Notes under the pieces: generated by a model | What the model saw: the letters and a program-made list of their open reading frames with translations, nothing else | Database searches by the model: none | Told to the model about the DNA's origin: nothing | In this document: one piece after another, positions 28,861 to 43,518 of the stretch | How the letters are laid out: each line of letters opens with the position of its first letter | Numbering within the stretch: position 1 is the stretch's first letter | Program-made: the position numbers and the translations under genes | Assembly (NCBI GenBank): GCA_026025795.1 | Contig: JAPEUG010000081.1 | Location: 1-53,311, forward strand | Source of the DNA: Thelocarpon superellum | Lineage: Eukaryota | Direction: 5' to 3' | Length of the DNA stretch: 53,311 nt

Positions 28861-30308
28861 ATGTCGGAGGCGGATCTCGAACATCGTTCTCCTCAGGCCG
28901 GCAATTCCCCCACCCTCACCCTGGCCGACCGCTCCCCCGCCAGTCCCGCGGCCGTCCCGGGACACGAGGGCTTCGTCGCGCCCTCGTCATACCTACGTCC
29001 ACGGACCGTGTCCAAGCCGAAGGAGACCCCACCTCCGCCGACCCCGCTGGACCTGGAACAAGCTCAAGGCTTGGTAGGGCCTCCATTTGTCGTCGGCGAG
29101 CGCACGAGATACACGTTCCTTGCTGACCGAGACTACGGGCGACCTACAGCGTGCCATACGCGCCTTTCTCAAAGTTCGTACCAGCTACGACGTCCTCCCA
29201 CTCAGTTTCCGCCTCATCATCTTTGATACCACGCTGTTGGTCAAGAAAAGCCTCAACATCCTCCTTCAGAACGGTGAGGAGTGGGGTTCCATGACATCCC
29301 CGCTGCCGCGGCTGATCGTGGTCAACCCACAGGCATCGTCTCCGCCCCGCTCTGGGACTCCAAGTCGTCTACCTTTGCCGGGCTGCTGACGACCTTTGAC
29401 TACATCAACGTTATCCAATACTACTGGCAGAACCCCGATGCCCTCAACCAGATCGACCAATTTCGACTGAACAGTCTGAGAGGTGAGTGTGCGACCGGCA
29501 CGTCGTGGGGTCGTGACCCCACGTCAACCACTCGACTAACTGCCCCGTCCGCAGAGGTGGAGAAGGCGATTGGCGTAGTGCCGATCGAGACCGTGTCCAT
29601 CAACCCACAGAAGCCGCTCTATGAGGCCTGCCGGCGGATGCTGGAGTCGCGGGCCCGTCGGATCCCCTTGGTCGACGTAGATGACGAGACCAACCGGGAC
29701 ATGGTCGTCAGCGTCGTGACCCAGTACCGCATCCTGAAGTTCGTCGCCGTCAACGTCACCGAGACGCAGATGTTGCGCAAGCCCCTGGGCACGTTGAGCC
29801 TCGGAACGTACGAGAATCTCTGGACGGCACACATGGACACGCCGGTCATCGATGTCATCCACATGTTCGTCAAGCGAAGCATCTCCAGCGTCCCTATTGT
29901 CGACAAAGAAGGTCAGACTACGCCTGCTCCACCGCATCGGGCCGCGCTGACAGACAGTAGGCCAGGTGCTCAACGTCTTTGAGGCGGTCGACGTCATCAC
30001 CATCATCAAGGGCGGCGTCTACGATGACTTGACCCTGAGCGTCGGCGAGGCCTTGACCAAGCGAGCCGAGGTGCGCTCCCGTACCAAGCCCCCATCACGA
30101 GAAGACATTCACTGAACAGAGCTAGGACTTCCCCGGCATCTACACGTGCACCCCGAACGATCGGCTGGATACCGTCTTCGATACGATTCGCAAGTCGCGC
30201 GTCCACCGTCTGGTGATCATCGACGAAGCCAACCATCTGAAGGGCGTGCTCACCCTCAGTGACATCCTCGAGTACATTCTGCTCGAGGGCGAGGGCGAGG
30301 AAGGTTGA
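28861..30308 (+). CDS. SNF4: AMPK/SNF1 gamma subunit (CBS domains)
   Basis: RAIRAFLKVRTSYDVLPLSFRLIIFDTTLLVKKSLNILLQN|GIVSAPLWDSKSSTFAGLLT, SVVTQYRILKFVAVN and SRVHRLVIIDE..LKGVLTLSDILEYIL. Five GT-AG introns, stop TGA at 30306-30308. Confidence 0.96.
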
Positions 30309-31379
30309 GACGAGACCGCACCAAGGATCTTCACTGCGCGTGTACGTGAGCATCAGCGCGGATCGGGATTGGGGCACGGCGATTCGGGAGGACACCTGGA
30401 GGAATATTTCTGTATTTTCTATAGACGGCCGATCATACATCGACTTTTTCGATGTTCCTTCAATACCCGGCGCCTCGTGCGCATTCCTTTCGTGCGCCAG
30501 GCGGTGCACCTCGTGCTCGTTGTTGGACGGGTGGCTGTCCTTTGACGTCGTGGCCTCATGAAAGGAACGCGGTTTATAGGACCTCTCAATAAGCAGCCGG
30601 GAAGGCGTACGAATCCAGTCAAGCCACCATCAACATTGTGCATTGCATGGTTCATCTGTGCCTCCCTTTCCCCATCTCTCTCACTATCAAGCTGGCTGAT
30701 CTCGTGCCCTAGCCTCTCCACCCGGGTCCCCCCTCGTGGGTACGTCCAACGGATCGCGACTGGCGCAGCCTTCCAGCCCGCTTTGGCACCCGGCGTGTCC
30801 GACCGCACCGTAGCCATCTGTTCCACGCTCCCTTATACGGAAGGGACCCCTGAGATTGTTTGGTGGTGGTCTTGTGGCAGAATCTGACTCAGCGCCTGGC
30901 GGATCCCCACTCAGGGGGAGGTTTCCCCGCTCACGGATAGGGGGGCGGGCTCCGTCGACGAAAACACCCTTTCAGCACCTTGGTGGGTGGCGTGGTCAGA
31001 CCAGCCTTTCGACTGAAGATGGGGCTCGTCTGCCGCTTCCTTATGCTGGATCAACCTGGCCGAAGACGGGAGGCACGCACTTTTTCTCGCGCCAGATCAA
31101 CCCTCCGGCGGGTGTCCGCCACATCAACCACACGAATATAGGAGGAGCTCCTCCCCGTGCCCTCCTCCGGCTATCATGAATCGAGGCGCGCCTTCCACGC
31201 TCACTCGATCATGCCAGGCGCCCGAGATCAACATGTTGATCTGCTATGGGCGCCGCTCGCGTCGCGCCCATAAAGCCGTGGTCATTTATCTTCGGCTTCC
31301 TTTCTCTTCTTCTTCTTCTCTTCTCCTCGTGAACACTTCCTTGGCTGAGCGCTCCCCCTCTTCCATCACGACGCCCATC

Positions 31380-33320
31380 ATGGCGTCCATCGTGAAGTTC
31401 ACCACCCTCATCTCCTCTCTCCGCGAGCACCGCTCGCTCTCTCGAAGGGTGTCCCCGTCGCGTCTGGCGGCACTCTCGACCTCGATCCCCACGGCTGCCG
31501 TCGCCCTCTCGCGAGGGCCTGACGCCGTGGTCGCCACATCTCGGACGCCCTCCAAGGGCTGGCTTTCACAGCAGCTCCTTGCGAGGACCTCCTCGTCCGA
31601 GTCCCGTGTCGACCGGGACGTTGTCGATCGAGTCGCCGCCGGCGACCTCCCGGCCCCTTCGCCTCTCTCGGCCGTCGTCGCCCTCCTGGCACGACGCGCC
31701 TGTTTCGCCGCCGCGGCTCGCGGTTCCTCGAGGTCACACGAGGACCGACGCCCGGCCGGCCCCTCCCCTCCCGCGTCCGCGACCCGCCGCTCCTCGAGGT
31801 CACACGAGGTCGGCGCCCGGACCGGATCTCCCTCTCTCGATGCACTCGATGCATTCGACCAAGCCGACTCCGCCGAGCGCGGATCCTCGCGGCCAGGCGA
31901 GGATACCAGCTCCCGGAGCGGCTCCCCCTTCCCTCTCGGTGCACTAGATGCATTCGAACCGACCGACTCCGCCGATGGCGACTCCTCACGGTCACATGAG
32001 GATAGCCCCCGGATCGGTCCCGCACTTTCGTCCGCCCCAACCGCCGGACCCGACGCGCCTGATGCCGACGTCGAGATCGACTCGAGCGATTGCAGCGCCG
32101 CGGCTTCGGCCGAGGCGTTCTCCCGGGTCGACACTCCGCCGCAGATTGCGCGCCTGCGTTCCGTCCTGGTCGATTGTAGCGCCGAGTTGCGAAACTCGGC
32201 ACTCTCCCAGGTCGGACGCAGTTCCGACGGTGCTTCGAGTCCCTGGGACTCGGAGTTGGATGGAAGCCTGGTCCAAGGACTTCCCGCCCCGATTGGCGCC
32301 ATCGCCCCGAGTTCCTCGGCGACACGCCAATCCAAGACGGAAGCACCTTGCGACCTCCTCGGCGCCCTCTTGAGGGTCGCCAACACCGAAGCCCCGGAGC
32401 AAGACCACCGTGGGCACGACATTCCATTGAGGAGTGTGCGTGTCCGGGCCTTGCTACCGACGCATTGCCCCATGCCCGAGCGGTCGACTCGCGTCGTCGT
32501 GGAGCGCATGGAGAGTCTCGCGGAGCTGTCGCCGCCAGTCGTCTCCTCCGACCGTGTCGGGGGTCACTGGCCCGGCAACTTCGCCGACTTCGGTCCCTTT
32601 GGGGCCATTTTCGCAATGCCGACGGGGCTTCAACCCGTCGCGGACGGCCCGGCACTGCCGGGACTGTTCGACGACTTTACGGCGTTCGCGCCGATCGATG
32701 GACGTCGCGAGACGGTCCTCGACGCGAGCCGTGTCGGAGACCTTCTGGTCAAGGCTCCGATGGTGGGAAGCGCGGCGACGACGGAGTCGGCTCCGATCGT
32801 CACACCGCCTCCCGCCGACCGGGCTGCAGGGATGCACGAGGCACCCGCCGCAGCCAGCTCGGCCGCCACCGCTCGATCCGCCTCCGGCGAGGTCGAGCGT
32901 CTCCCGGAGTCGCCATCGCGCGACCTCACCCCATCCACCGGCGACGATTCGAGTGCGCCCGGAGTAGGCCCTGGTGTCTACTCCGACGATCGCACGTCGT
33001 TCCCGGTCTGGTACGGACGGGAGCCGAGCAATTCGGAGGATTGGGGCTCCTTCGGCGGCGTTCCATCCCTGCGGCGCGCGTTCACTTTTGAGCGCCGCGA
33101 CCAGGGCATGGACGCCATGCGGAGGGAGATCCTTCGGCTTCACCGGCGGGTGGAGTCGAAGGACCGGGAGTTGGAGGAGAAGGAGGAGGCACTTCGGTGC
33201 AAGGACCAGGAAATCGAGCGGCTGCTCGAGGACCTGGCGTGGAAAGACGAGGAGCTGGTCTGGAAGGACGAGCTCCTGGTGGAGGTGAACGAGGAAGTCG
33301 AGCGACTCGAGAACGCCTAG
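31380..33320 (+). CDS. Intronless orphan Ser/Pro/Ala-rich protein with internal repeats and C-terminal acidic coiled coil
   Basis: Open frame 31176-33320, most plausible ATG at 31380 (MASIVKF) after a pyrimidine-rich leader. SSRSHE-type repeats. C-terminal heptads KDRELEEKEEALRCKDQEIERLLEDLAWKDEELVWKDELL. No family recognised. Confidence 0.6.
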   Translation: MASIVKFTTLISSLREHRSLSRRVSPSRLAALSTSIPTAAVALSRGPDAVVATSRTPSKGWLSQQLLARTSSSESRVDRDVVDRVAAGDLPAPSPLSAVVALLARRACFAAAARGSSRSHEDRRPAGPSPPASATRRSSRSHEVGARTGSPSLDALDAFDQADSAERGSSRPGEDTSSRSGSPFPLGALDAFEPTDSADGDSSRSHEDSPRIGPALSSAPTAGPDAPDADVEIDSSDCSAAASAEAFSRVDTPPQIARLRSVLVDCSAELRNSALSQVGRSSDGASSPWDSELDGSLVQGLPAPIGAIAPSSSATRQSKTEAPCDLLGALLRVANTEAPEQDHRGHDIPLRSVRVRALLPTHCPMPERSTRVVVERMESLAELSPPVVSSDRVGGHWPGNFADFGPFGAIFAMPTGLQPVADGPALPGLFDDFTAFAPIDGRRETVLDASRVGDLLVKAPMVGSAATTESAPIVTPPPADRAAGMHEAPAAASSAATARSASGEVERLPESPSRDLTPSTGDDSSAPGVGPGVYSDDRTSFPVWYGREPSNSEDWGSFGGVPSLRRAFTFERRDQGMDAMRREILRLHRRVESKDRELEEKEEALRCKDQEIERLLEDLAWKDEELVWKDELLVEVNEEVERLENA

Positions 33321-33414
33321 CAGCGTTCACGGAAGACTTCGGTCTTGCGCCCGTCCACGACTTTCGCCCTCGTTACCCCCGCCCCGTCCCCACGGAGCCG
33401 GCGACGAGAATCCG

Positions 33415-34061
33415 GAAGAAATTGAGGGTCGGCCAGCCGTGGCTTGCTGCGCGACCATTCTCCCTTCTCGATTCCCGCCACCAACGATCCCGACGACGCG
33501 GACGACTGGCCAGCCGTTGCTTGCTGCGCAGTCCTCCGCCATTCGGATCCCCGCTCCCCTCCTCCTCCTTTTACGACAAAGAAATTGAGGGCCGGCCAGC
33601 CGTTGCTTGCTGTGCAGCCATTCTCCCTCTGTCGTCACCCTCCCCTCCCCCCCGCCTCCCCCCGGACGATGATGGAGAAATTGAGGACTGGCCAGCCGTT
33701 GCTTGCTGCGCAGTCATTCTCCCTCCCAATTCGCCCGCTCTCCCCGGCAACGACGACGAAGAAGTTGAGGGTTGGCCAGCCGTTGCTCGCTGCGCACCTC
33801 TTCTCTCTTCGTCCCGTTGTCGGTCCCGGTGTCGACGCCGATCGCGGAGAAATTGAGGACTGGGCAGCCGTTGCTTGCTGTACGGTCATTCTCCCTTCCC
33901 GGTCGTCTCGATGCCCTCTCCCGTGTCGAAGACCTTGAGGGTTGGCCAGCCGTTGCTTGCTGCGCAACCATTCTCTCTTTGTCACATCTCGAACGTCATC
34001 CCCTGAACGCGAAGGAGTTGAGGGCCAGCCAGCCGTTGCTCGCTGCGTGGTCATTCTCCCT
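33415..34061 (+). repeat. Array 1: eight copies of a ~48-nt hairpin repeat separated by variable ~30-45-nt C-rich spacers
   Basis: Consensus GAAATTGAG-GNNNR-GC-CAGC-CGTTGCTT-GCTG-CG-YNNNC-ATTCTCCCT. Cores at 33433, 33510, 33596, 33692, 33776, 33864, 33946, 34029 (periods 77, 86, 96, 84, 88, 82, 83). Confidence 0.93.
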
Positions 34062-34298
34062 TCTCCTTCAGCCTGACGTCCTTTCTTCCAGTCGCTCTGT
34101 CGTCTGTCTTTACCGACGTCTGTCGTCTGTCGCGGTCGTCGTCCAGTCGCCTCGTCGCATATCGTTTCGTCTGCCGTCCACGATGCTCAATCATTTGATC
34201 GAACTCGGTGGCTGCGGAGTCCTACCCATCCCGGAGTATTCCGGCTTCTTGATGGTTTTGACCAATCTCTGCTCTGTCGTCCGCAAGGGACCAAGCAA

Positions 34299-35580
34299 CC
34301 AAACATCTTTCTGTCGTCCCCAAGCGACCCACCTGACATCCCGCCGGCGATCACCTCTCGAAGCCTCCTAGGCTCCTCGATCGCACGAGCAAATCTCATC
34401 GCTTTCGAGCAACCAAGCAAAACTTCCGCCGACGATCATCTCCTCGATCGCACGTGCACCCCAATCTCTTCTCTGTCGTCCACAAGCGACGGATCAAACA
34501 TCCTCCCCGGCGATCACCTTTTCGAGCTGCCCAAGCTCACGATCGCACGAGCACCGTGACCAACTCTTCTCTTCGTCGCTTTCCAGCGACTGCAAAAGCT
34601 CCTGACGTCGATCATCTCCTTGAGCACTTCCCGCTCCTCGATCGGACGCGCACTCGTGAGCAAAAATCTTTTTCCTCCTCGCTTTCCGGCGAATGTCGGG
34701 ATATCCTGCCGGCGCTCATCTCGAGCACTCCCTGCTCTCGATCGCATGTGCAACGGTGACCAATCTTCTTCTTCTTCATCGTTGTCACGTCGTCGTCGTC
34801 GTCGCATTCTTCTTTCGTCGACCGACCGGACCTCTGGCCGTCGATCGCCTCGTCAAGCTGCCCAAGCCCTCGATCGTACGCGCACTCATGACCAAACCTC
34901 TTCTCCTCGTCGCCTCTCAGCGACGAACAACTCTCTCTGCCGGCGATCACATGGAACACTCCTCGCTCCTCGATCGCACGAGCAAGTGTGACCAATCTCT
35001 TCTCCGTTGCTCCGAGCGACGCTCAAGTCCTCCCGCTGTTGATCATCTGGAGCCTCTCTTGCTCGATGATTGCACGAGCGATCGTGACCAAACCTTTATC
35101 TCTTCCTCGCTTACCAGCGACCGTACAACCCTTCCGCCGGCGATTGTCCGTTCGAGCTCTCCCCGCTCTCGGATCGCACGAGCGTCACCCTACTTCATGG
35201 TCGTAAGCAACGACGACCAATCCAATCCAATCCAAGTCCTTGTTGCCTTGCGACCACAAGCAACCTCCCCGCCGGCGATCCGATCACGAGCTCGAGCTCT
35301 CTTCGCTCCCTGATCGCACGAGCGCCAACATACGTCTCGGTCGTTAGCAACGAACGACCAAACCAAACCAAATTCCGTCGCCTGGCGACCAAAAGCAACT
35401 TCGTGCCGGCGATCATCTTCCTCGAGCAACTTTCGCTCTTCGATCGCACGGCCCTTCCTTTCTCCCTCTCGCGAGCAACTGCGACTGCAATCAATCTTCC
35501 CGCCGGCATTCACCTCCTCGAGCTCAGCCCGCTCGCTGTTTGCACGGGCGCCAACGCTCCCGTCGCCAGCGACGCAGCAA
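34299..35580 (+). repeat. Array 2: about twelve diverged ~100-nt units, each with two hairpin-forming motifs
   Basis: Unit is ACCAA..(Y-rich)..GTCGC-n-GCGAC...GCCGGCGATC..GAGC-n-GCTC..GATCGCACGAGC. GATCGCACG-like motif near 34379, 34446, 34541, 34640, 34740, 34872, 34972, 35068, 35172, 35312, 35442, 35538. Confidence 0.85.
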
Positions 35581-35604
35581 CTTCTGGCTCCTGATGGTAC
35601 TCAA

Positions 35605-37714
35605 ATGGCAGGTGAGTCAACACACCTGTCGGCCGCGCGACAGACGTCCAGTGGCACGACTGACATCATATCAGCCAAACATTTCGTCGATGATCCTACC
35701 CGGCTGGTGCGCACAGCGCTGGAGGCCGCTCCTCTCATAAACCCTTCATTAGGCCTCGACGCCGAAAACAAGATCGTCTACCGACGGGCCAAGCATGCAC
35801 CACAAGTAGCTTTGGTCTCGGGCGGAGGCTCCGGCCACGAACCTAGCTTCACGGGATTTGTCGGACATGGCCTTCTGTCAGCGGCAGTGGCAGGCTCTAT
35901 CTTCGCCAGCCCCAGTGCTGCACAGGTCCGGTCGGCCCTTCTACAGCGAGTAGACGGCCGGCAGGGTATCCTGGTCATCCTCATGAACTATACCGTGAGT
36001 GATGAACTCCTGTCACACCTGAAATTCTGCGGGCGAGAGCGCAGTCTGATCTGCGACGGCGACGATAGGGTGACGTGCTCAACTTTGGCATGGCCGTGGA
36101 AAGCGCCAAAGCAAGTGGAGCGCAGGTGGAAATGGTCGTCGTCGGCGACGACGTCGGTGTCGGGCGACGCCAGGCGGGGAAGGTCGGCCGCCGAGGCATT
36201 GCAGGCACAGTGCTGGTACACAAGATCACCGGTGCGCTGGCAAGCACGGGGTAGGGCATCGCAAGAGCAGAGGACGAGTCGGACAGGCTGACCAGGCACC
36301 TCATCAGGGCCCCCCTGGACCAGGTGCGCAACATCGCGCTGCTCACATCCCAAAACTTAGTCTCCGTCGGTGCGTCCCTCGATCGGGTCCATGTGCCTGG
36401 TCGCGCCCCTTTGGAGCCTACCTCCGACGAGACGCTGGCCACTGGTGAGGTCGAAGTGGGAATGGGCATCCATAATGAACCCGGTTCCTACCGCGCCCGC
36501 CTGGACCTACATGGCCTCGTGAAGTCGATGCTCGCCCAAATTCTGGACGATGACGAGGATCGCGCCTTTCTTCGCATCACCCCGGACGATCCCGTCGTGC
36601 TCCTGCTGAACAATCTTGGCGGAGTGAGCATGCTTGAACTTGCCGGCATCACCACCGAAGTGGTAAGCCAGTTGAGATCATCATATAGCATTAAGCCTGC
36701 GAGAATTCTCTCGGGCACCTACATGACCAGTTTGAACGGCCTCGGCTTCAGCATCACGCTCCTGAAACTCGTCGACACAGGGCTCGGCAAAGGGCAACAA
36801 CTGATCGACCTCCTAGACGCCCCCGCGGAAGCCGTGGGCTGGTCCGCACCTGTTGCTCCACAAAGCTGGGGCCAGAAAGGAGACATCGAGGAAGACACCG
36901 TGATGGGCGGCATCGATGACTACTCCAAGCCCAGCGGCTTCCGCAGTGAGCATCTCCGTACCCAGTCCGAGTCGAGACGCTGACGATTACGACAGTGGAT
37001 CCAGTAGTCGCAAAGACGGCGTTGGAATCTGCTCTGAAGCGTCTGATCCATGTAGAAGCCGACATCACGCACTACGATGACGTGGTGGGCGACGGCGACT
37101 GCGGGGTTGGACTGACGCGAGGGGCTGAAGGTGCGTGCACAGTCTCGCACGGCAGGCATGTGGCTTACAATCTTAGCCGTCTTGAGCGTCATCACGGGCG
37201 ATCAGCCGCTGTCTGACGACGCGGAGGTCGAGGTCAATCGCTGGGCTCGCATCGTGGAGACGAGCATGGACGGCACATCTGGCGCCCTCTACACGTGAGT
37301 CGGTCTGGGGGGCCCAAACGAGACGTCTACCGCTGATCACTACGCAGCATCTTCCTGCATTCGCTCGCCCATTCGCTCCGCGAGGCCGGCGAGACCGGCT
37401 TGCAGATAGGGACCGCCTTCCAGTGGGCCGAAGCTCTTCACGCTAGCCTCGCCGTGCTACGCCGCTATACCCCAGCGCACCCGGGCGACCGCACCGTGGT
37501 CGATGCCTTGCAGCCTTTCATCGAGGTACTGCAGCACACGGGTGATGTGAAGCAGGCGGCCGCTGCGGCCAAAGAGGGTGCGAGGCGAACCCAGAGCATG
37601 AGACCGAGTCTAGGCAGAAGTGTCTATGTTGGCGGGGATGGCTGGCGAGACGTGCCCGATCCGGGGGCTCATGGGTTGAGCGAGTTCCTGCTGGGATTTG
37701 CAGCCGGACTGTGA
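35605..37714 (+). CDS. DAK1: Dihydroxyacetone kinase (DhaK-DhaL fusion)
   Basis: [112 protein letters not shown] and PDPGAHG. Six introns. Confidence 0.94.
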
Positions 37715-39841: not shown

Positions 39842-42800
39842 ATGTCCTCGCCAGCGGCCTATCCTGGCTCGGTGCCCGCGTCCACTGCGGGCGCGAGTGC
39901 TGCAGCCCAGGATGGCGTGCTGGGAGACTCGCACGGGCTCTGCCTGAAACCCATGCGGCGTAAGACTCCTCACCCCTCCCAAACCCTCGATGCGAACTAG
40001 GGCTAACCTCATGACGGCCTGTCTACAGTGAAAGTGCTCTACACCTTCGACGATCAGAACAAGACCAACTGCCTGGCACGTTGGCCTCATGTCATCCAGG
40101 TCCAGACCGTCCAACTAGACGAGACGTCGACCATCGGTGTCATCGAGCTCAAGACCTGCATCCAGGCGATTGTCTCCGCAAGGTAGGTCGCTCCCCATCT
40201 GCGTTTTACGCGTGCCTCCTGCGACGCGTTGCTGAGACCAATGCTGATTGCCTTCATCGCAGTCCTGAACTCGTCGCCAAACTGGGTCAAGACTATACAG
40301 TCTACGCGTATGACTACTCCGAGTATGAAACGCCCTTGGTTGGTCAAGGCATGCTGTCGTGGGCACTGGCGTCCGCGTCACCTACCCCCGGAGCCCCCGC
40401 TCATCAATCGCGTACGATGATCACCGGTCGTGTCTGCAAGAACATCCTCGGACTATTCAGCAACGGCGTCAAAGAGACCTTGGAGGTCAAGCTTCGCCTC
40501 GTGGCCGTTCCCACGTGCCTTCAGAGCGATTATTTAACCAGCATGGAGCGTTATCGTCAGATCAGCAAGGGCTTCCCTCAAGGCGTCGACCCGACCGATG
40601 CGAACCCGCAGCTGAGCATGGCCGACCGAATTCAGACAACGACCGTGATGCCTGAGATGCCACGTCCCAGAGACGGCGCCGGCGTCGAGCAACTGAGACA
40701 TATGCTGGAGCAAGGCCTCGCCTCCGATCATGTGACCCAGAGCGCGCCGCCTCCATCGGCGTTCGAGGCTGGCGCCATGCAAGGCCGGGTGGGGTCCATG
40801 GTGTCCAGATACGAGACCATGGAGCACGACTTCAGAGCCGAGCAGCCCTGTCGGCCGCGGTTGCATACAGTCGTCAAATCCGAGCCGTCTTCGCGACCCG
40901 CCTCACGGGATGCCCCAGACTCCTGCCGCCCCGCCTTCGTTCAGCTTGGCTACGGCGATGAGAACGTCAAACCTGCCGACGCGGAAGAAGAACGAGGTCG
41001 CAAGAGGGTCCGAGTGACGCAGACCAATTGGAGCGGTAAGTCGACCTTGGAGAGCAACGCGGAATCGCTCCGGGTCGCCGCCAGCACCGCCGCCAGCGTA
41101 CGCGTCTATCGACCCATTGCTATGAACCCTGCTATGGCGCCACGGGGTTCGCTCGAGCCTGGGCCGCGTGCCCCCACGCCCCGCCCAGAGCGTGCCGCCC
41201 CCAAACCCAGCCGGCTGCTCTATGGCGCTCAGAGCCGGCTTCGGCATGGTTCCTTTGACCAGGGCCCCGGTCACGCGCACCCATCCATCGAGTCATCCGC
41301 CACCTCACCCGACGAGGGACAGATGGGCAGCTTTGCCCAGACGCCCATCGATATCACATCCTCGCCTCCACAAGTGGAGGCTTTCTCAACGGCCGCGTCG
41401 AGCCCTGGCCTTCCCCCGCTAGCCCTTCCGACCGACTCCGGCTTCATGAGCGGCGCGATCGATGATCTGTTCGAAGAGGCAGACGACGACGAGATGCGCT
41501 TGCCAGATATAGACGACCTGGAGGCCGCGGCACATTACATCAAGCGTGACGCGAGACCCTCCGTCAAGGAGCTCACCATCGAGGAGGTGGTGCCCGGCCC
41601 GCCAGAGCTCCTACCCACGAAGATCCTTCCACGACCCGCCTCGAGTCTGAAGGTAGGATCCAAGCGGTCCCGATCGATCGCCTGTAGCGAAACGGGTGAA
41701 GTTCCAGAGGGCGCGGAGAAGCCACCCGCCTCCAAGGTACCTAGCAAGCTCGGCACCGCGGTGGTCTCAGATGCCGCTCACTCCATGAGACCCGTGGGAA
41801 CTCAAGCACCACCCTCATCGATGCGGGCGTCAAACCCCCCTGCACGACCACTGGCCCCGTCTCGGCCCATCGCACGCGCTCCGTCCGTCGGGAACGTGAC
41901 CTTGCCCTCAGTCACCAGTGACCCCATCTTTCAACCCATCGCCCCCCGCCCTGGCCCTCCCGGCGCTGGTACCGATCACGCCACGTCCGACGCCAGCGTC
42001 TACCCCACGGCCGACGCGGCACGAAAGGCGGGACCCGAACCACCCAAACTCGTGCGCAGCGGCTCCGGCATGAAGCGACGCAAGGCCATTCAAAAGCGTC
42101 TTGAGAACGCCATCGAGATGGGAGAGACCCCTCCATACTGCGGCAATTGCGGCGCGATCGAGACCCCGACGTGGCGAAAAGCGTGGGCGAAAGATGTCCC
42201 AGGCACTCTCGATCAGATTCGACCGTCGGAGGAGAGCGGCATCATCGGCGTGGTGAACATTGACCGAGCGCCTGTCCCATCCGTCACTATCCTCAAAAAG
42301 ATTGTGGCGCCGAGCGATCAGGGCTTTCACGAGGTGCAAATGTGCAATCGTACGTCCCCCTTCCCTCACCTGTCCTTCCTTCGATGAGAGTTGACTGACG
42401 CAACCGTAGCCTGTGGCCTGTGGTTACACAAATTCCGCTCCATGCGCCCATCCGAGAGGTGGAACAAGGAGCCCAAGGGGCCGGATGAGAAGAAACGCTC
42501 CCGCAAACGCAAGAACTCGACGTTGAGTGAGATCACGCCTTCGGAGGGTATCTTTTCACGTGACGTGTCGGCGGCGCCCACGACGTCCCGGCTGGGAGAT
42601 TCATTGGTCGAGGCATCGGAGGTGGCCGACGGGGCCTCGCAACCCGGCCCGGCGCGGCCGACGAAGAAACGAGCCAACAGCGTGCAGATCGAGCGTCTGC
42701 ACCGGGAGGGGGGCTGGACCGAGGACGCCGCGGCCGCGGCGTTGGCGCGGGCGATTCAGTCCAGCCCCGCGCGCCTGCTTGGTCAGGCGCAGAGTCCCAT

Positions 42801-43518
42801 CGAGCTTGATGGGCTGGGGTACACCAAGCGCAAGCTGTTCTCGTCGCCGGGAGCAGCTGCCGCCCCAGCCCATCAAGCCCGATGGGAAACGGCGCCTGCC
42901 CGGGCAGGCGCGCGGGGCGTGGAGGAGGCGGAGAAGGAGGCTCCGCCAGTGGTTCTCGCGGCGCCTCCGATGGCGGATGCGGTTCCGGGCGCATCCTGCC
43001 CGGACCCGGGCAACAAGGAGAATCTCCCCCCCATCGGGGCGGACGATCTGGAGGAGCTGTGGGCGCCTTTGGAGGCGGGAGGGCCCACCACTCCGTCCAG
43101 ATTCGCCTCGGCGGGTGGAGGGGATCTCCTATTGCCGCCGCGCACGCCCAGCACGCGTGCGCGGACTCCGCCGTCGGAGGTGCGCCCGGTAGATCCGTCG
43201 CCGTTTACGGCGCATTTGCACGCCTTGCTGTCGGGGACGGACGTCTCCCCCTCGACTCAGGCCTTCCACAATCTCCCGTCGATCGAGGAGGTCTACCAGA
43301 GCGGCGGGCGGCCTCCGGCTTCGGCCATGGGCTTCGCGGACGTTGACGTGGACCACGTCTTCCCGGTGGGGGACATCTTCTCCACGGATAACGTCATGCC
43401 GTCGTCACCCCCGGCCTTCTTCGAGTTGTACGAGGATCCCGTCGTTCCCGCCTCGGGTTTTTGGACCGAGTTCGAGATGCCGGATGGCGAAATGACGGAG
43501 GCGCCCTCCTTGCTCTAG
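39842..43518 (+). CDS. ams2: Ams2/Spt21-family GATA-type transcription factor
   Basis: N-terminal domain KPMR|LKVLYTFDDQNKTNCLARWP, SPELVAKLGQDYTVYAYDYSEYETPLVGQGMLSW and TGRVCKNILGLFSNGVKETLEVKLRL. Split zinc finger CGNCGAIETPTWRK...MCN|PCGLWL. Late KENLPP motif. Three introns. Confidence 0.88.

What the first reader, a model, noticed from the sequence alone, without database searches (positions are those of the whole stretch)
30700..35590. A ~5-kb cassette (structured leader + orphan coiled-coil ORF + two hairpin arrays) between SNF4 and DAK1
Seen: the block differs from its conserved, mostly intron-containing neighbours. It is intronless, C/CpG-rich on the plus strand, rich in inverted repeats and has about 2.3 kb of patterned non-coding sequence after the ORF. 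I see no transposase, reverse transcriptase, terminal inverted repeat or target-site duplication. Inference: a single functional unit, such as a protein plus its multivalent RNA scaffold or sponge, a selfish/drive-type locus, or a retro-copied or virus-derived non-autonomous element.
Basis: inference. Interest (0 to 1): 0.8.

Follow-up and report, generated by a model that had tools for sequence, protein, structure and literature searches.

The report
Hairpin repeat arrays beside orphan gene
Between two housekeeping genes of a lichen-allied fungus lie an orphan gene for a mostly floppy protein with a dimer-forming tail and two old tandem arrays of conserved hairpins whose stems co-vary; they look like an undescribed structured RNA (or hairpin-prone DNA), but no expression data or related genomes exist yet to prove it.

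Summary
The sequence features are real. Between a CBS-domain (SNF4-like) gene and DAK1, all on the + strand, lie an intronless 646-aa ORF (31380-33320) and 2,284 nt of non-coding DNA. That DNA holds two unrelated tandem arrays: 8 units of 77-98 nt (33392-34085) and 12 units of 67-140 nt (34264-35552). All 8 array-1 units fold into the same ~23-bp hairpin. Its apical core is about 90% identical between units, its flanks about 40%, and its stems are kept by compensatory changes (13 of 23 pairs; 0 of 500 shuffles reach this). Array-2 units carry two hairpins that are kept mainly by sequence conservation. The ORF has no detectable relative and is mostly disordered. It ends in a helix predicted to form a parallel dimeric coiled coil. 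The "structured leader" folds no better than shuffled sequence. Read depth indicates a single-copy locus, and no transposon, retro-copy or viral hallmark was found. My best reading (about 0.4) is that the hairpin arrays are under selection and act as + strand RNA: the ORF's 3'UTR and DAK1's upstream leader. Rivals are hairpin-prone minisatellites kept by template switching, and DNA-level regulatory arrays. I could not test whether the ORF and the arrays form one unit, because no RNA run, whole genome or close relative is available.

The parts
30126..30308 (+). Last exon and stop codon of the upstream CBS-domain (SNF4-like, AMPK gamma-type) gene
   Evidence: Pfam CBS, E 4.7e-11. The stop TGA at 30306-30308 was read.
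30309..31379 (+). Spacer between SNF4 and the ORF: presumed SNF4 3'UTR plus the ORF's promoter and 5'UTR. A CT-rich tract lies at about 31285-31330.
   Evidence: The fold of 30700-31379 has z -0.48, no better than shuffles. Sequence. GC skew is -0.25 in bin 31001.
31225..31272 (.). Two back-to-back perfect palindromes, 108-155 nt upstream of the ORF's ATG: an 18-nt palindrome with no loop, and a 9-bp stem with a 10-nt loop. A 14-nt palindrome lies at 31141-31154.
   Evidence: These are 2 of only 8 perfect hairpins of 9 bp or more in the 53-kb window.
31380..33320 (+). Intronless orphan ORF of 646 aa. It is rich in S, A, R and P, has pI about 5.0 and is mostly disordered. It contains an internal 99-nt repeat (31834-31905 and 31933-32004).
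   Evidence: In the AF2 model 493 of 646 residues have pLDDT below 50. No relative was found. No Pfam family matched. The internal repeat is D12.
33090..33314 (+). Codes for the C-terminal helix (residues 571-645), a predicted parallel in-register homodimeric coiled coil
   Evidence: In the AF2 model the 10-residue blocks from residue 581 onward average pLDDT 95-98, and block 571-580 averages 82. The dimer model scores 0.60 against a best control of 0.01.
33392..34085 (+). Array 1: 8 tandem units of 77-98 nt. Each unit is one hairpin of about 23 bp with a conserved apical core and variable, covarying stems.
34086..34263 (+). Spacer between the arrays, with degenerate 7-nt GTCGTCT repeats at 34091-34143. 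It is the least GC-rich part of the tract.
34264..35552 (+). Array 2: 12 tandem units of 67-140 nt. Each unit has a GACCAA plus CT-rich segment, a short hairpin A (UCGC/GCGA stem) and a three-helix hairpin B.
35561..35574 (+). Partial 13th unit: a palindrome like hairpin A, followed by an AGCAAC motif. It ends 30 nt before the DAK1 ATG. An out-of-frame upstream ATG lies at 35595.
   Evidence: Read. AGCAAC at 35576.
35605..35994 (+). Start of DAK1: exon 1 at 35605-35611, an intron, and exon 2 at 35675-35994
   Evidence: Pfam Dak1, E 2.6e-29. The public model P0003 begins [11 protein letters not shown].

Best explanation
This is not a mobile cassette. It is a single-copy stretch of the fungal chromosome with two components. 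(i) A lineage-restricted, intronless gene for an acidic, mostly disordered protein rich in S, A, R and P, whose last ~75 residues form a parallel dimeric coiled coil. (ii) A 2.28-kb spacer that runs up to DAK1 and is built from two old, unrelated tandem arrays whose units are maintained as hairpins. In array 1, hairpin formation itself is under constraint. An invariant apical stem-loop is presented eight times on stems whose sequences differ between units but stay complementary. I infer that the arrays act as + strand RNA. Array 1 begins about 70 nt after the ORF's stop codon, so it would be the ORF mRNA's long structured 3'UTR. Array 2 ends 30-50 nt before DAK1's ATG, so it would be upstream or leader RNA of DAK1. 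On this reading the arrays are multivalent platforms for an unknown sequence- and structure-specific RNA-binding factor that controls mRNA stability, localisation or translation, or controls DAK1 by read-through. Shown here: the arrays, the conserved hairpins, the covariation, the single-copy state, the orphan and disordered nature of the ORF, and the coiled-coil prediction. Inferred: transcription, strand, transcript boundaries, the binding factor, and any link to the ORF protein.
For: ARRAY 1, WHOLE HAIRPIN. The consensus hairpin has 23 pairs. 85.3% of 184 cells form a standard pair, against 38.6-52.3% when the partners are slid by 1-3 columns. 13 pairs show changes on both sides, against 2-6 when slid. 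0 of 500 shuffles reach the observed pairing, the compensatory cells or the covariation score.

ARRAY 1, MIDDLE HELIX. It is 95.8% paired, and 4 of its 5 variable pairs are compensatory. All four combinations of states at pairs 27-52 and 28-51 occur. By my count from the table this needs at least 5 independent double changes.

ARRAY 1, OUTER STEM. The sequences are specific to each unit yet complementary. They are 64.3% paired against 46.3% in shuffles (0 of 500 reach it) and 27-43% when slid. 7 of 7 pairs have changes on both sides.

UNEVEN CONSERVATION. The core is 0.90 identical, the variable stem columns 0.52 and the flanks 0.39-0.44. Whole units are only 56-78% identical, so the array is old.

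FOLDING. All 8 units have the same hairpin as their minimum-energy fold, with z from -1.28 to -3.93. The whole array has z -2.71.

ARRAY 2. Hairpin B is 92.1% paired against 16-42% when slid. The position that varies most in its 3' arm is a predicted bulge. 10 of 12 units have negative z, and 5 reach -2.4 or lower.

NON-CODING. Unit lengths are not multiples of 3 and there is no codon periodicity.

REAL, STABLE, SINGLE-COPY. The likely source run covers all 30 bins at depth 131-243 with no joints. Three metagenome runs of a second study hold pieces of the ORF and of both arrays with 0-3 differences per piece.

CONTEXT. The three genes are co-oriented and the arrays abut the ORF's stop codon and DAK1's ATG.

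COILED COIL. AF2 models a helix over residues 571-645; the 10-residue blocks from 581 onward average pLDDT 95-98. The homodimer model supports binding but does not show it. The score is 0.60 and the best of 3 controls is 0.01. That mark was reached by 21 of 30 proteins solved as pairs of one chain and by 0 of 23 solved as single chains. On eukaryotes it was reached by 17 of 29, but by only 1 of 7 with no older solved relative. The runs agree in at least 95% of contacts, and the partner's pLDDT is at least 84. Coiled coils are a textbook interface, so this pass may reflect likeness to solved structures.
Against: No strand signal, which an RNA under selection should leave. In array 1 there are 14 G.T cells, but 7 of them are one conserved column, against 7 A.C cells. 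In array-2 hairpin B the counts are 6 against 5. The minus strand folds even better than the plus strand (z -4.22 against -2.71). Symmetric pairing fits a DNA-level process as well as RNA. Array 2 has little covariation: 2 pairs, and 29 of 500 shuffles reach that number. All copies are paralogues within one genome, so the shuffle controls overstate independence, and part of the pattern is inherited through a two-unit higher-order repeat. There are no expression data and no orthologous arrays. No Rfam family matched. Nothing ties the ORF protein to RNA: it has no RNA-binding domain.
Confidence: 0.4

Rival explanations
1. Hairpin-prone minisatellites with no function of their own. Palindromic units stall replication and expand by slippage. 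Intra-strand template switching or hairpin-templated repair copies one arm from the other, so complementarity is renewed by mutation and not by selection. The cores look conserved because the C-rich spacers diverge quickly through slippage.
For: Wobble against A.C cells show no strand asymmetry (14, of which 7 are one column, against 7; and 6 against 5). Both strands fold well. This is what a DNA-level process predicts. Two unrelated hairpin arrays lie side by side, with 7-nt and 3-nt microrepeats between and inside them, which points to a locally repeat-prone region. The ORF itself contains 99-nt and 21-nt repeats. A published mechanism exists: 'Template switching in DNA replication can create and maintain RNA hairpins', PMC8794818. 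I saw only the search listing and the start of the abstract.
Against: The array is old (units 56-78% identical) yet keeps a 22-nt core that is invariant or nearly so in 8 of 8 units, and 0.90 identity across the core against about 0.4 in the flanks. Template switching renews complementarity. It does not conserve loop and core sequence across copies. A 40-50-nt core is short for homogenisation by gene conversion (my inference). Stems carry G.U intermediates and bulges at fixed places, not perfect arms.
Confidence: 0.25
2. DNA-level cis-regulatory arrays: repeated promoter or enhancer modules, that is, homotypic clusters of transcription-factor sites. They would mainly serve DAK1, whose ATG lies 30-50 nt after array 2.
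For: Array 2 runs right up to the DAK1 start. Its units carry a GACCAA(T) element followed by a CT-rich tract, which resembles the CCAAT-box plus CT-box layout of filamentous-fungal promoters (that layout is recalled, not from a call). AGCAAC and its complement GTTGCT together occur 17 times in 2.2 kb: 9 AGCAAC and 1 GTTGCT in array 2, and 7 GTTGCT in array 1. The background rate of AGCAAC is about 0.23 per kb. An orientation-independent protein site would look like this. Sense-strand C-richness is typical of the 5' regions of other genes in this window.
Against: A protein site does not need its two flanks to stay complementary while their sequence changes. The compensatory changes in array 1 are therefore unexplained. 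The CCAAT pentamer is intact in only 4 of 12 units, and the conserved word is GACCAA. The 7 metagenome DAK1 relatives (45-68% identity) show no cassette DNA. No upstream repeats were found in the 3 that I scanned (L119-L121), of which only 2 have kilobases of upstream sequence.
Confidence: 0.12
3. A tandem cluster of small-RNA (milRNA-like) precursor hairpins. Each array-1 unit would be a Dicer substrate giving the same ~21-22-nt species.
For: Each unit is a single hairpin of ~23 bp with internal loops. Both arms are conserved except for four central positions.
Against: The 8-nt loop is as conserved as the arms (6 of 8 identical), which is unlike miRNA families. The stem is only just long enough. 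No small-RNA data exist. A re-analysis of fungal hairpin small RNAs (PMC9757828; I saw passages via a term search) contains 0 occurrences of 'tandem', 'polycistronic' or 'clustered'. I did not check whether this fungus has Dicer or Argonaute genes, because no genome is held.
Confidence: 0.07
4. One reading: the ORF protein binds its own downstream arrays, forming a self-contained protein-plus-scaffold unit. Alternatively, the block is a selfish, retro-copied or virus-derived element.
For: The ORF and the arrays are adjacent and co-oriented. The ORF is lineage-restricted, Arg/Ser-rich and disordered, and is predicted to dimerise, which would give multivalency. The block has higher GC than its neighbours (0.67-0.71 against about 0.60).
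Against: No RNA-binding domain was found. No transposase or reverse transcriptase was found, and I saw no terminal repeats or poly(A) remnant; target-site duplications were not searched for. The locus is single-copy by depth. The covariance model finds only the 8 known units in 53 kb. The viral scan gave only single chance matches: each of the 80 loci listed, out of at least 117, has one match. Adjacency alone is weak evidence.
Confidence: 0.08

Closest known systems
Repeat modules of long non-coding RNAs, e.g. the Xist A-repeat. The description is recalled. PMC6917512 was seen only as a search listing and the start of its abstract.
   Same: About 8 tandem copies of a short, GC-rich, conserved core that forms a stem-loop, separated by variable pyrimidine-rich spacers. 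The architecture suits multivalent protein binding.
   Different: There is no sequence similarity. The organism is a fungus, not a mammal. The arrays lie between two coding genes and abut a stop codon and a start codon. Transcription and protein partners are unknown here. The stems here covary between copies.
Hairpins created and maintained by replication template switching (PMC8794818; search listing and start of abstract only)
   Same: Complementarity of the stem arms is kept through changes on both sides, with no strand bias between G.U and A.C.
   Different: That mechanism explains perfect arms. It does not explain an invariant loop and core shared by 8 diverged copies, or bulges and internal loops at fixed places.
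Minisatellites (tandem repeats with units of tens of bases)
   Same: Head-to-tail units of 67-140 nt in non-coding DNA, with variable unit length and a higher-order two-unit period.
   Different: Conservation within a unit is very uneven (0.90 in the core, about 0.4 in the flanks), and each unit keeps a hairpin through compensatory change.
Fungal hairpin small-RNA (milRNA) loci (PMC9757828; passages seen via term search)
   Same: Intergenic or UTR hairpins of about 65 nt.
   Different: The loop is as conserved as the arms, there are eight tandem paralogues, and there is no small-RNA evidence. That paper's text does not mention tandem or polycistronic loci (0 occurrences).
Conserved structural RNAs of fungi (PMC8216456; term search only) and Rfam 15
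   Same: Candidate cis-acting RNA structures in fungal UTRs, supported by covariation.
   Different: No Rfam family reaches threshold. The only match at E of 1 or below is a bacterial sRNA at 19.9 bits against a gathering score of 70. That paper has 0 occurrences of tandem, repeat, DAK1 or SNF4.

Membership tests
Any Rfam 15 RNA family | Covariance-model score at or above the family's gathering score | tested here: not met
   Search of 30000-36500 on both strands at E of 1 or below gave 1 match: Ysr224, 19.9 bits against a gathering score of 70, inside the ORF on the minus strand.
Box C/D snoRNA cluster | A C box (RUGAUGA) near the 5' end and a D box (CUGA) near the 3' end of each unit | tested here: not met
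   0 of 8 array-1 units and 0 of 12 array-2 units have a C box. CUGA occurs in 1 of 8 and 3 of 12 units. The box consensus is recalled.
miRNA-like (milRNA) hairpin cluster | A stem of about 21 bp or more that can give a small-RNA duplex | tested here: met
   The consensus hairpin has 23 pairs with internal loops.
miRNA-like (milRNA) hairpin cluster | Arms more conserved than the loop | tested here: not met
   The 8-nt loop is identical in 6 of 8 units, as conserved as the arms.
miRNA-like (milRNA) hairpin cluster | Discrete 20-24-nt reads from the arms | not testable with these tools
   No RNA run was listed for this organism.
Transposable element, MITE or retro-copy | A transposase or reverse-transcriptase ORF, terminal inverted repeats, or a poly(A) tail | tested here: not met
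   No Pfam family matched the ORF or any of 11 alternative ORFs. None of the 15 inverted-repeat pairs is terminal. I saw no poly(A) tract. Target-site duplications were not searched for.
Transposable element, MITE or retro-copy | Multiple dispersed copies in the genome | tested here: inconclusive
   No other copy exists in the 53-kb window. Depth in the likely source run is flat at 131-243 across the block and its flanks. No whole genome was available to search.
Minisatellite | Head-to-tail tandem units of tens of bases in non-coding DNA | tested here: met
   This is a descriptive class, so membership says nothing about function.
Repeat-peptide precursor (KEX2-processed or RiPP-type) | Units that keep one reading frame | tested here: not met
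   Unit lengths mod 3 are 2,2,0,0,1,1,2,2 for array 1 and mixed for array 2. There is no codon periodicity.
CCAAT-box promoter module array | An intact CCAAT pentamer in each module | tested here: not met
   CCAAT occurs in 4 of 12 units. The conserved word is GACCAA, with 10 copies.
Coiled-coil homodimer (ORF C-terminus) | A long helix with heptad a/d contacts between two copies | tested here: met
   AF2 models a helix over residues 571-645; the 10-residue blocks from 581 onward average pLDDT 95-98. The dimer model scores 0.60 against a best control of 0.01. Contacts recur every 3-4 residues from 573 to 644 and are in register. This is a prediction only and may reflect likeness to solved coiled coils.

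The most novel reading that the evidence does not exclude
The two arrays are a new kind of eukaryotic cis-acting RNA. Eight plus twelve selected hairpins would form a multivalent scaffold carried on the 3'UTR of an orphan gene and the leader of DAK1. The scaffold would be bound by a dedicated factor, possibly the neighbouring dimeric, disordered, Arg/Ser-rich protein itself. The result would be a self-contained RNP or condensate module that couples the orphan gene to DAK1 expression in an isolated lichen-allied lineage. The AGCAAC words in array 2, some in hairpin loops, might also kiss the complementary 8-nt loops of array 1.
Probability: 0.1. Interest if true: 0.75.

Novelty: new variant of a known kind. 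Interest (0 to 1): 0.45.

Why it matters
If the arrays are selected RNA hairpins, this would be a rare fungal example of a tandem, multivalent structured-RNA module. Such architecture is known mainly from animal lncRNAs. It would also be unusual in that covariation is visible among paralogous copies within a single genome. The locus sits in an almost unsampled lineage: the source's own name for the window's DAK1 protein gives Thelocarpon superellum, order Thelocarpales, leotiomyceta incertae sedis. If the arrays turn out instead to be kept by template switching, the locus would be a clean natural case of mutation-driven hairpin maintenance that mimics selection. That would be a useful caution for covariation-based RNA discovery. 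Either way the claim can be tested with one RNA-seq experiment and one sister genome.

Tried and rejected
EXPRESSION. No RNA holder was listed for the stretch, so transcription, strand and transcript ends remain unknown.

PARALOGUES. No whole genome is held. Only the 53-kb window and read depth could be used.

RELATIVES OF THE ORF. The word-indexed search found 1 protein, the ORF itself, among 8,000 candidates scored. HMMER against 1.84 billion representatives found the ORF itself plus one repetitive protein, P0002 (E 9.9e-5, 36% identity over residues 236-311). I judge that hit spurious, a low-complexity match. ESM Atlas gave a best feature score of 0.84 and all TM-scores at or below 0.26, below any useful bar. 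Pfam gave only sub-threshold hits: XLF_CC at E 0.27 and RNase_Y_N at E 0.39.

RELATIVES OF THE ARRAYS. A 28-position array-1 unit pattern that matches 7 of the 8 units found 0 matches in metagenome contigs. A 16-mer core in viral contigs gave at least 117 loci. The 80 listed each have a single match and none is an array, so these are chance hits. The covariance model R1 found only its 8 training units (65.7-89.5 bits); the next best hit scored 12.2 bits at E 0.35.

SYNTENY AND EMPTY SITE. A DAK1 exon found 7 metagenome loci at 45-68% identity. None has the SNF4 exons, the ORF or cassette DNA by tblastn or blastn. The three scanned upstream regions (L119-L121) have 0 direct-repeat families. These loci are too distant to count as an empty-site test.

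METAGENOME RUNS. Parts of the stretch have no cover in X2-X4. These are low-depth contig sets, so no conclusion was drawn.

STRAND. Wobble counts and fold energy are equivocal.

KISSING LOOPS. AGCAAC occurs 9 times in array 2, against about 0.23 per kb elsewhere. Its complement sits in the loops of 7 array-1 hairpins. However, with 42 and 24 frequent 6-mers in the two arrays, the chance of some complementary pair is roughly 0.25. Complementary 8-mer matches between the arrays number 54, no more than array 1 has with other window segments (up to 51). I kept this as a lead only.

OTHER CLASSES REJECTED. snoRNA, repeat-peptide precursor and CCAAT-module readings were rejected. No tRNA genes were found. 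The bacterial promoter and terminator scan does not apply to a fungus.

THE LEADER. It is not more stable than shuffles as a structured RNA.

EARLIER NOTES OF THIS SCAN. Nothing was found by place, sequence or words.

LITERATURE. No paper describing such arrays turned up in the term searches. 'Thelocarpon superellum' occurs only in two checklists. No supplementary files were opened.

Full report
WHERE THIS IS. The window is a GC-rich (0.60) fungal contig. A source's own name for the DAK1 protein encoded here reads 'MAG: hypothetical protein ... [Thelocarpon superellum]'. Thelocarpon belongs to Thelocarpales, placed as leotiomyceta incertae sedis. The next best DAK1 relatives among 1,493 hits are only 62-66% identical over a conserved 173-aa exon. 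No close relative is therefore in the protein databases. That limits every comparative test below and weakens any inference drawn from 'orphan' status. CBS-domain exons (SNF4-like) end at a stop codon at 30306-30308. Dak1-domain exons start from an ATG at 35605. All three genes lie on the + strand.

THE ORF. An open frame runs from 31176 to 33320. The public protein set holds exactly the 646-aa intronless model that starts at ATG 31380. A CT-rich tract precedes that ATG. GC at codon positions 1, 2 and 3 is 0.69, 0.58 and 0.77 and begins to show this pattern near 31317, as in neighbouring genes. The long antisense ORFs are the usual by-product of GC-rich coding sequence. The protein is rich in S, A, R and P, has pI about 5.0 and a basic N-terminus (+7 over the first 60 residues), and contains an internal 99-nt repeat. 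In the AlphaFold2 model 493 of 646 residues have pLDDT below 50. The one confident element is a helix at residues 571-645; the 10-residue blocks from 581 onward average pLDDT 95-98. Two copies of residues 556-646 are modelled as a parallel, in-register coiled coil. The score is 0.60 against a best control of 0.01. That mark was reached by 21 of 30 solved homodimers and 0 of 23 solved monomers. On eukaryotes it was reached by 17 of 29, but by only 1 of 7 with no older solved relative. The runs agree in at least 95% of contacts, and the partner's pLDDT is at least 84. This supports dimerisation but does not show it, and coiled coils may pass by likeness to solved structures. No relative was found. 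The word-indexed search returned only the ORF itself. HMMER against 1.84 billion representatives returned the ORF itself plus one repetitive protein at E 9.9e-5, which I judge spurious. Pfam and ESM Atlas gave nothing usable.

THE ARRAYS ARE REAL. The 2,284 nt between the ORF's stop codon and DAK1's ATG consist of two unrelated arrays. No 6-mer that is frequent in both arrays is shared in the same sense.
- Array 1 (33392-34085) has 8 units of 77-98 nt. Its 22-nt core occurs 8 times with up to 3 mismatches, nowhere else in 53 kb, where chance expects 0.00.
- Array 2 (34264-35552) has 12 units of 67-140 nt. A partial 13th palindrome lies at 35561-35574, 30 nt before DAK1's ATG.
- Neither array is coding. 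Unit lengths break frame and there is no codon periodicity.
- The region is the longest C-rich tract in the window (GC skew -0.19 to -0.31), and CpG observed/expected reaches 1.5 in array 2. Sense-strand C-richness also marks the 5' ends of other genes here, so composition alone is not special.

THE HAIRPINS.
- All 8 array-1 units have the same single hairpin as their minimum-energy fold, with z from -1.28 to -3.93. The consensus has 23 pairs.
- 85.3% of cells are paired, against 38.6-52.3% with slid partners. 13 pairs have compensatory changes, against 2-6 when slid. 0 of 500 shuffles reach the observed values on four of the five measures.
- The five-pair middle helix takes at least four different Watson-Crick versions. 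By my count from the table, this needs at least 5 independent double substitutions, with G.U intermediates.
- The outer stem differs in sequence in nearly every unit but stays complementary: 64.3% paired against 46.3% in shuffles (0 of 500 reach it), and 7 of 7 pairs change on both sides.
- Conservation is sharply uneven: 0.90 in the core, 0.52 in the variable stem columns and 0.39-0.44 in the flanks. Whole units are 56-78% identical. The array is therefore old, its core is constrained, and pairing as such is maintained.
- Each array-2 unit has a short hairpin A and a three-helix hairpin B. Hairpin B is 92.1% paired against 16-42% when slid, but it has only 2 compensatory pairs, a number that 29 of 500 shuffles reach. 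Its structure is therefore kept mostly by sequence conservation. The full-unit alignment used 9 of the 12 units; I left out the short unit 2 and the long units 6 and 10. Per-unit z is negative in 10 of 12 units.

RNA OR DNA, AND WHICH STRAND? This remains open. G.T cells (wobble on +) against A.C cells (wobble on -) number 14 against 7 in array 1, but 7 of those 14 are one conserved column. In hairpin B they number 6 against 5. The minus strand of array 1 folds with z -4.22 and the plus strand with z -2.71. This lack of asymmetry is the main evidence against a simple 'selected + strand RNA' and in favour of a DNA-level process such as replication template switching (PMC8794818, listing and start of abstract only). 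On the other side, template switching does not explain an invariant loop and core shared by eight diverged copies. A protein-binding DNA site does not explain arms that change in sequence yet stay complementary. I therefore rank selected RNA hairpins first (0.4), mutation-maintained minisatellites second (0.25) and DNA regulatory arrays third (0.12). The + strand assignment and the split between 3'UTR and leader rest only on geometry. Array 1 starts about 70 nt after a + strand stop codon, and array 2 ends 30-50 nt before a + strand ATG.

IS IT A CASSETTE OR A MOBILE ELEMENT? There is no evidence for that.
- The likely source DNA run covers all 30 bins of 29500-36500 at depth 131-243, with no joints. 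That argues for a single copy and against an obvious mis-join. The contigs are short, though, and no single piece spans the block.
- Three metagenome runs from a second study hold pieces of the ORF and of both arrays with 0-3 differences per piece. One example is 34038-34300, which bridges the end of array 1 and the start of array 2. The arrays therefore recur in independent samples.
- No transposase or reverse transcriptase was found, and I saw no terminal repeats or poly(A) remnant. Target-site duplications were not searched for. Viral contigs gave only single chance matches to a 16-mer.
- The 'structured leader' is not more stable than shuffles (z -0.48). Two strong palindromes at 31225-31272 look more like promoter elements, which is my inference.

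WHAT COULD NOT BE DONE. No RNA run was listed and no whole genome is held. The array-1 unit pattern had no match in metagenome contigs. The 7 DAK1-bearing metagenome loci (45-68% identity) carry no SNF4, ORF, cassette DNA or upstream repeats, but they are too distant to serve as an empty-site test. Rfam has no matching family. The snoRNA, repeat-peptide precursor and CCAAT-module readings failed explicit tests. One lead remains. The word AGCAAC occurs 9 times in array 2, and its complement sits in the loops of 7 array-1 hairpins. I do not think this is statistically compelling.

VERDICT. The 'single functional unit' interpretation cannot be judged with the data available, and its mobile or viral variants are unsupported. 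What stands out is array 1: eight paralogous hairpins with a constrained apical core and covarying stems, and no match in Rfam. It is a credible candidate for an undescribed structured element in a barely sampled fungal lineage. The evidence comes from one genome and includes no expression data, so I score interest at 0.45.

Noticed in passing
window 30927-30979, 34092-34161, 35457-35535: In the likely source run, a second set of contigs at about a quarter to a third of the depth carries clustered differences: 4, 4 and 6 sites in the three stretches. Two of these differences (30927 C>G and 34116 A>G) are also seen in the metagenome runs X2 and X3. This suggests a minor haplotype or a second strain in the source sample. 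The single variant at 33712 lies 31 nt from a contig end inside array 1 and may be cross-mapping between units.
   Followed up: partly
window 35595-35611: An upstream ATG lies 10 nt before the DAK1 start codon and is out of frame with it. If DAK1's leader includes it, it would act as an overlapping uORF.
   Followed up: no
window 34294-35581 (array 2) and 33431-34048 (array 1 loops): AGCAAC occurs 9 times in array 2, against about 0.23 per kb outside the arrays. Three of the nine sit in hairpin loops (units 10-12). Its complement lies in the 8-nt loop of 7 array-1 hairpins. This could mean kissing loops or a shared protein site, but overall complementarity between the arrays is not above background.
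   Followed up: partly
window 31225-31272: Two perfect 9-bp palindromes lie back to back, 108-155 nt upstream of the ORF's ATG. They are 2 of only 8 such palindromes in 53 kb and are candidate promoter elements.
   Followed up: partly
window 42725-43164: Three perfect palindromes of 9-10 bp cluster in a 0.67-0.70 GC stretch. This is the only other palindrome-dense spot in the window.
   Followed up: no
window 31834-32004 and 33227-33279: The ORF itself is repeat-built. A 99-nt direct repeat (79% identical) encodes Ser/Arg-His-Glu-Asp and LDALDAF-like motifs. A 21-nt repeat of 2.5 copies lies inside the coiled-coil region.
   Followed up: no
window 34091-34143: Degenerate GTCGTCT heptamer repeats (about 7 copies) fill the gap between the two arrays. 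A CGT trinucleotide run lies inside array 2 at 34788-34804.
   Followed up: no
window 33639-33664: One array-1 spacer is a long C-run tract. It could form an i-motif on the + strand or a G-quadruplex on the - strand. It is not present in all spacers.
   Followed up: no
runs X2-X5: Near-identical pieces of this locus occur at low depth in runs labelled moss metagenome, from a different study than the likely source. This suggests the fungus is present in those moss samples.
   Followed up: partly
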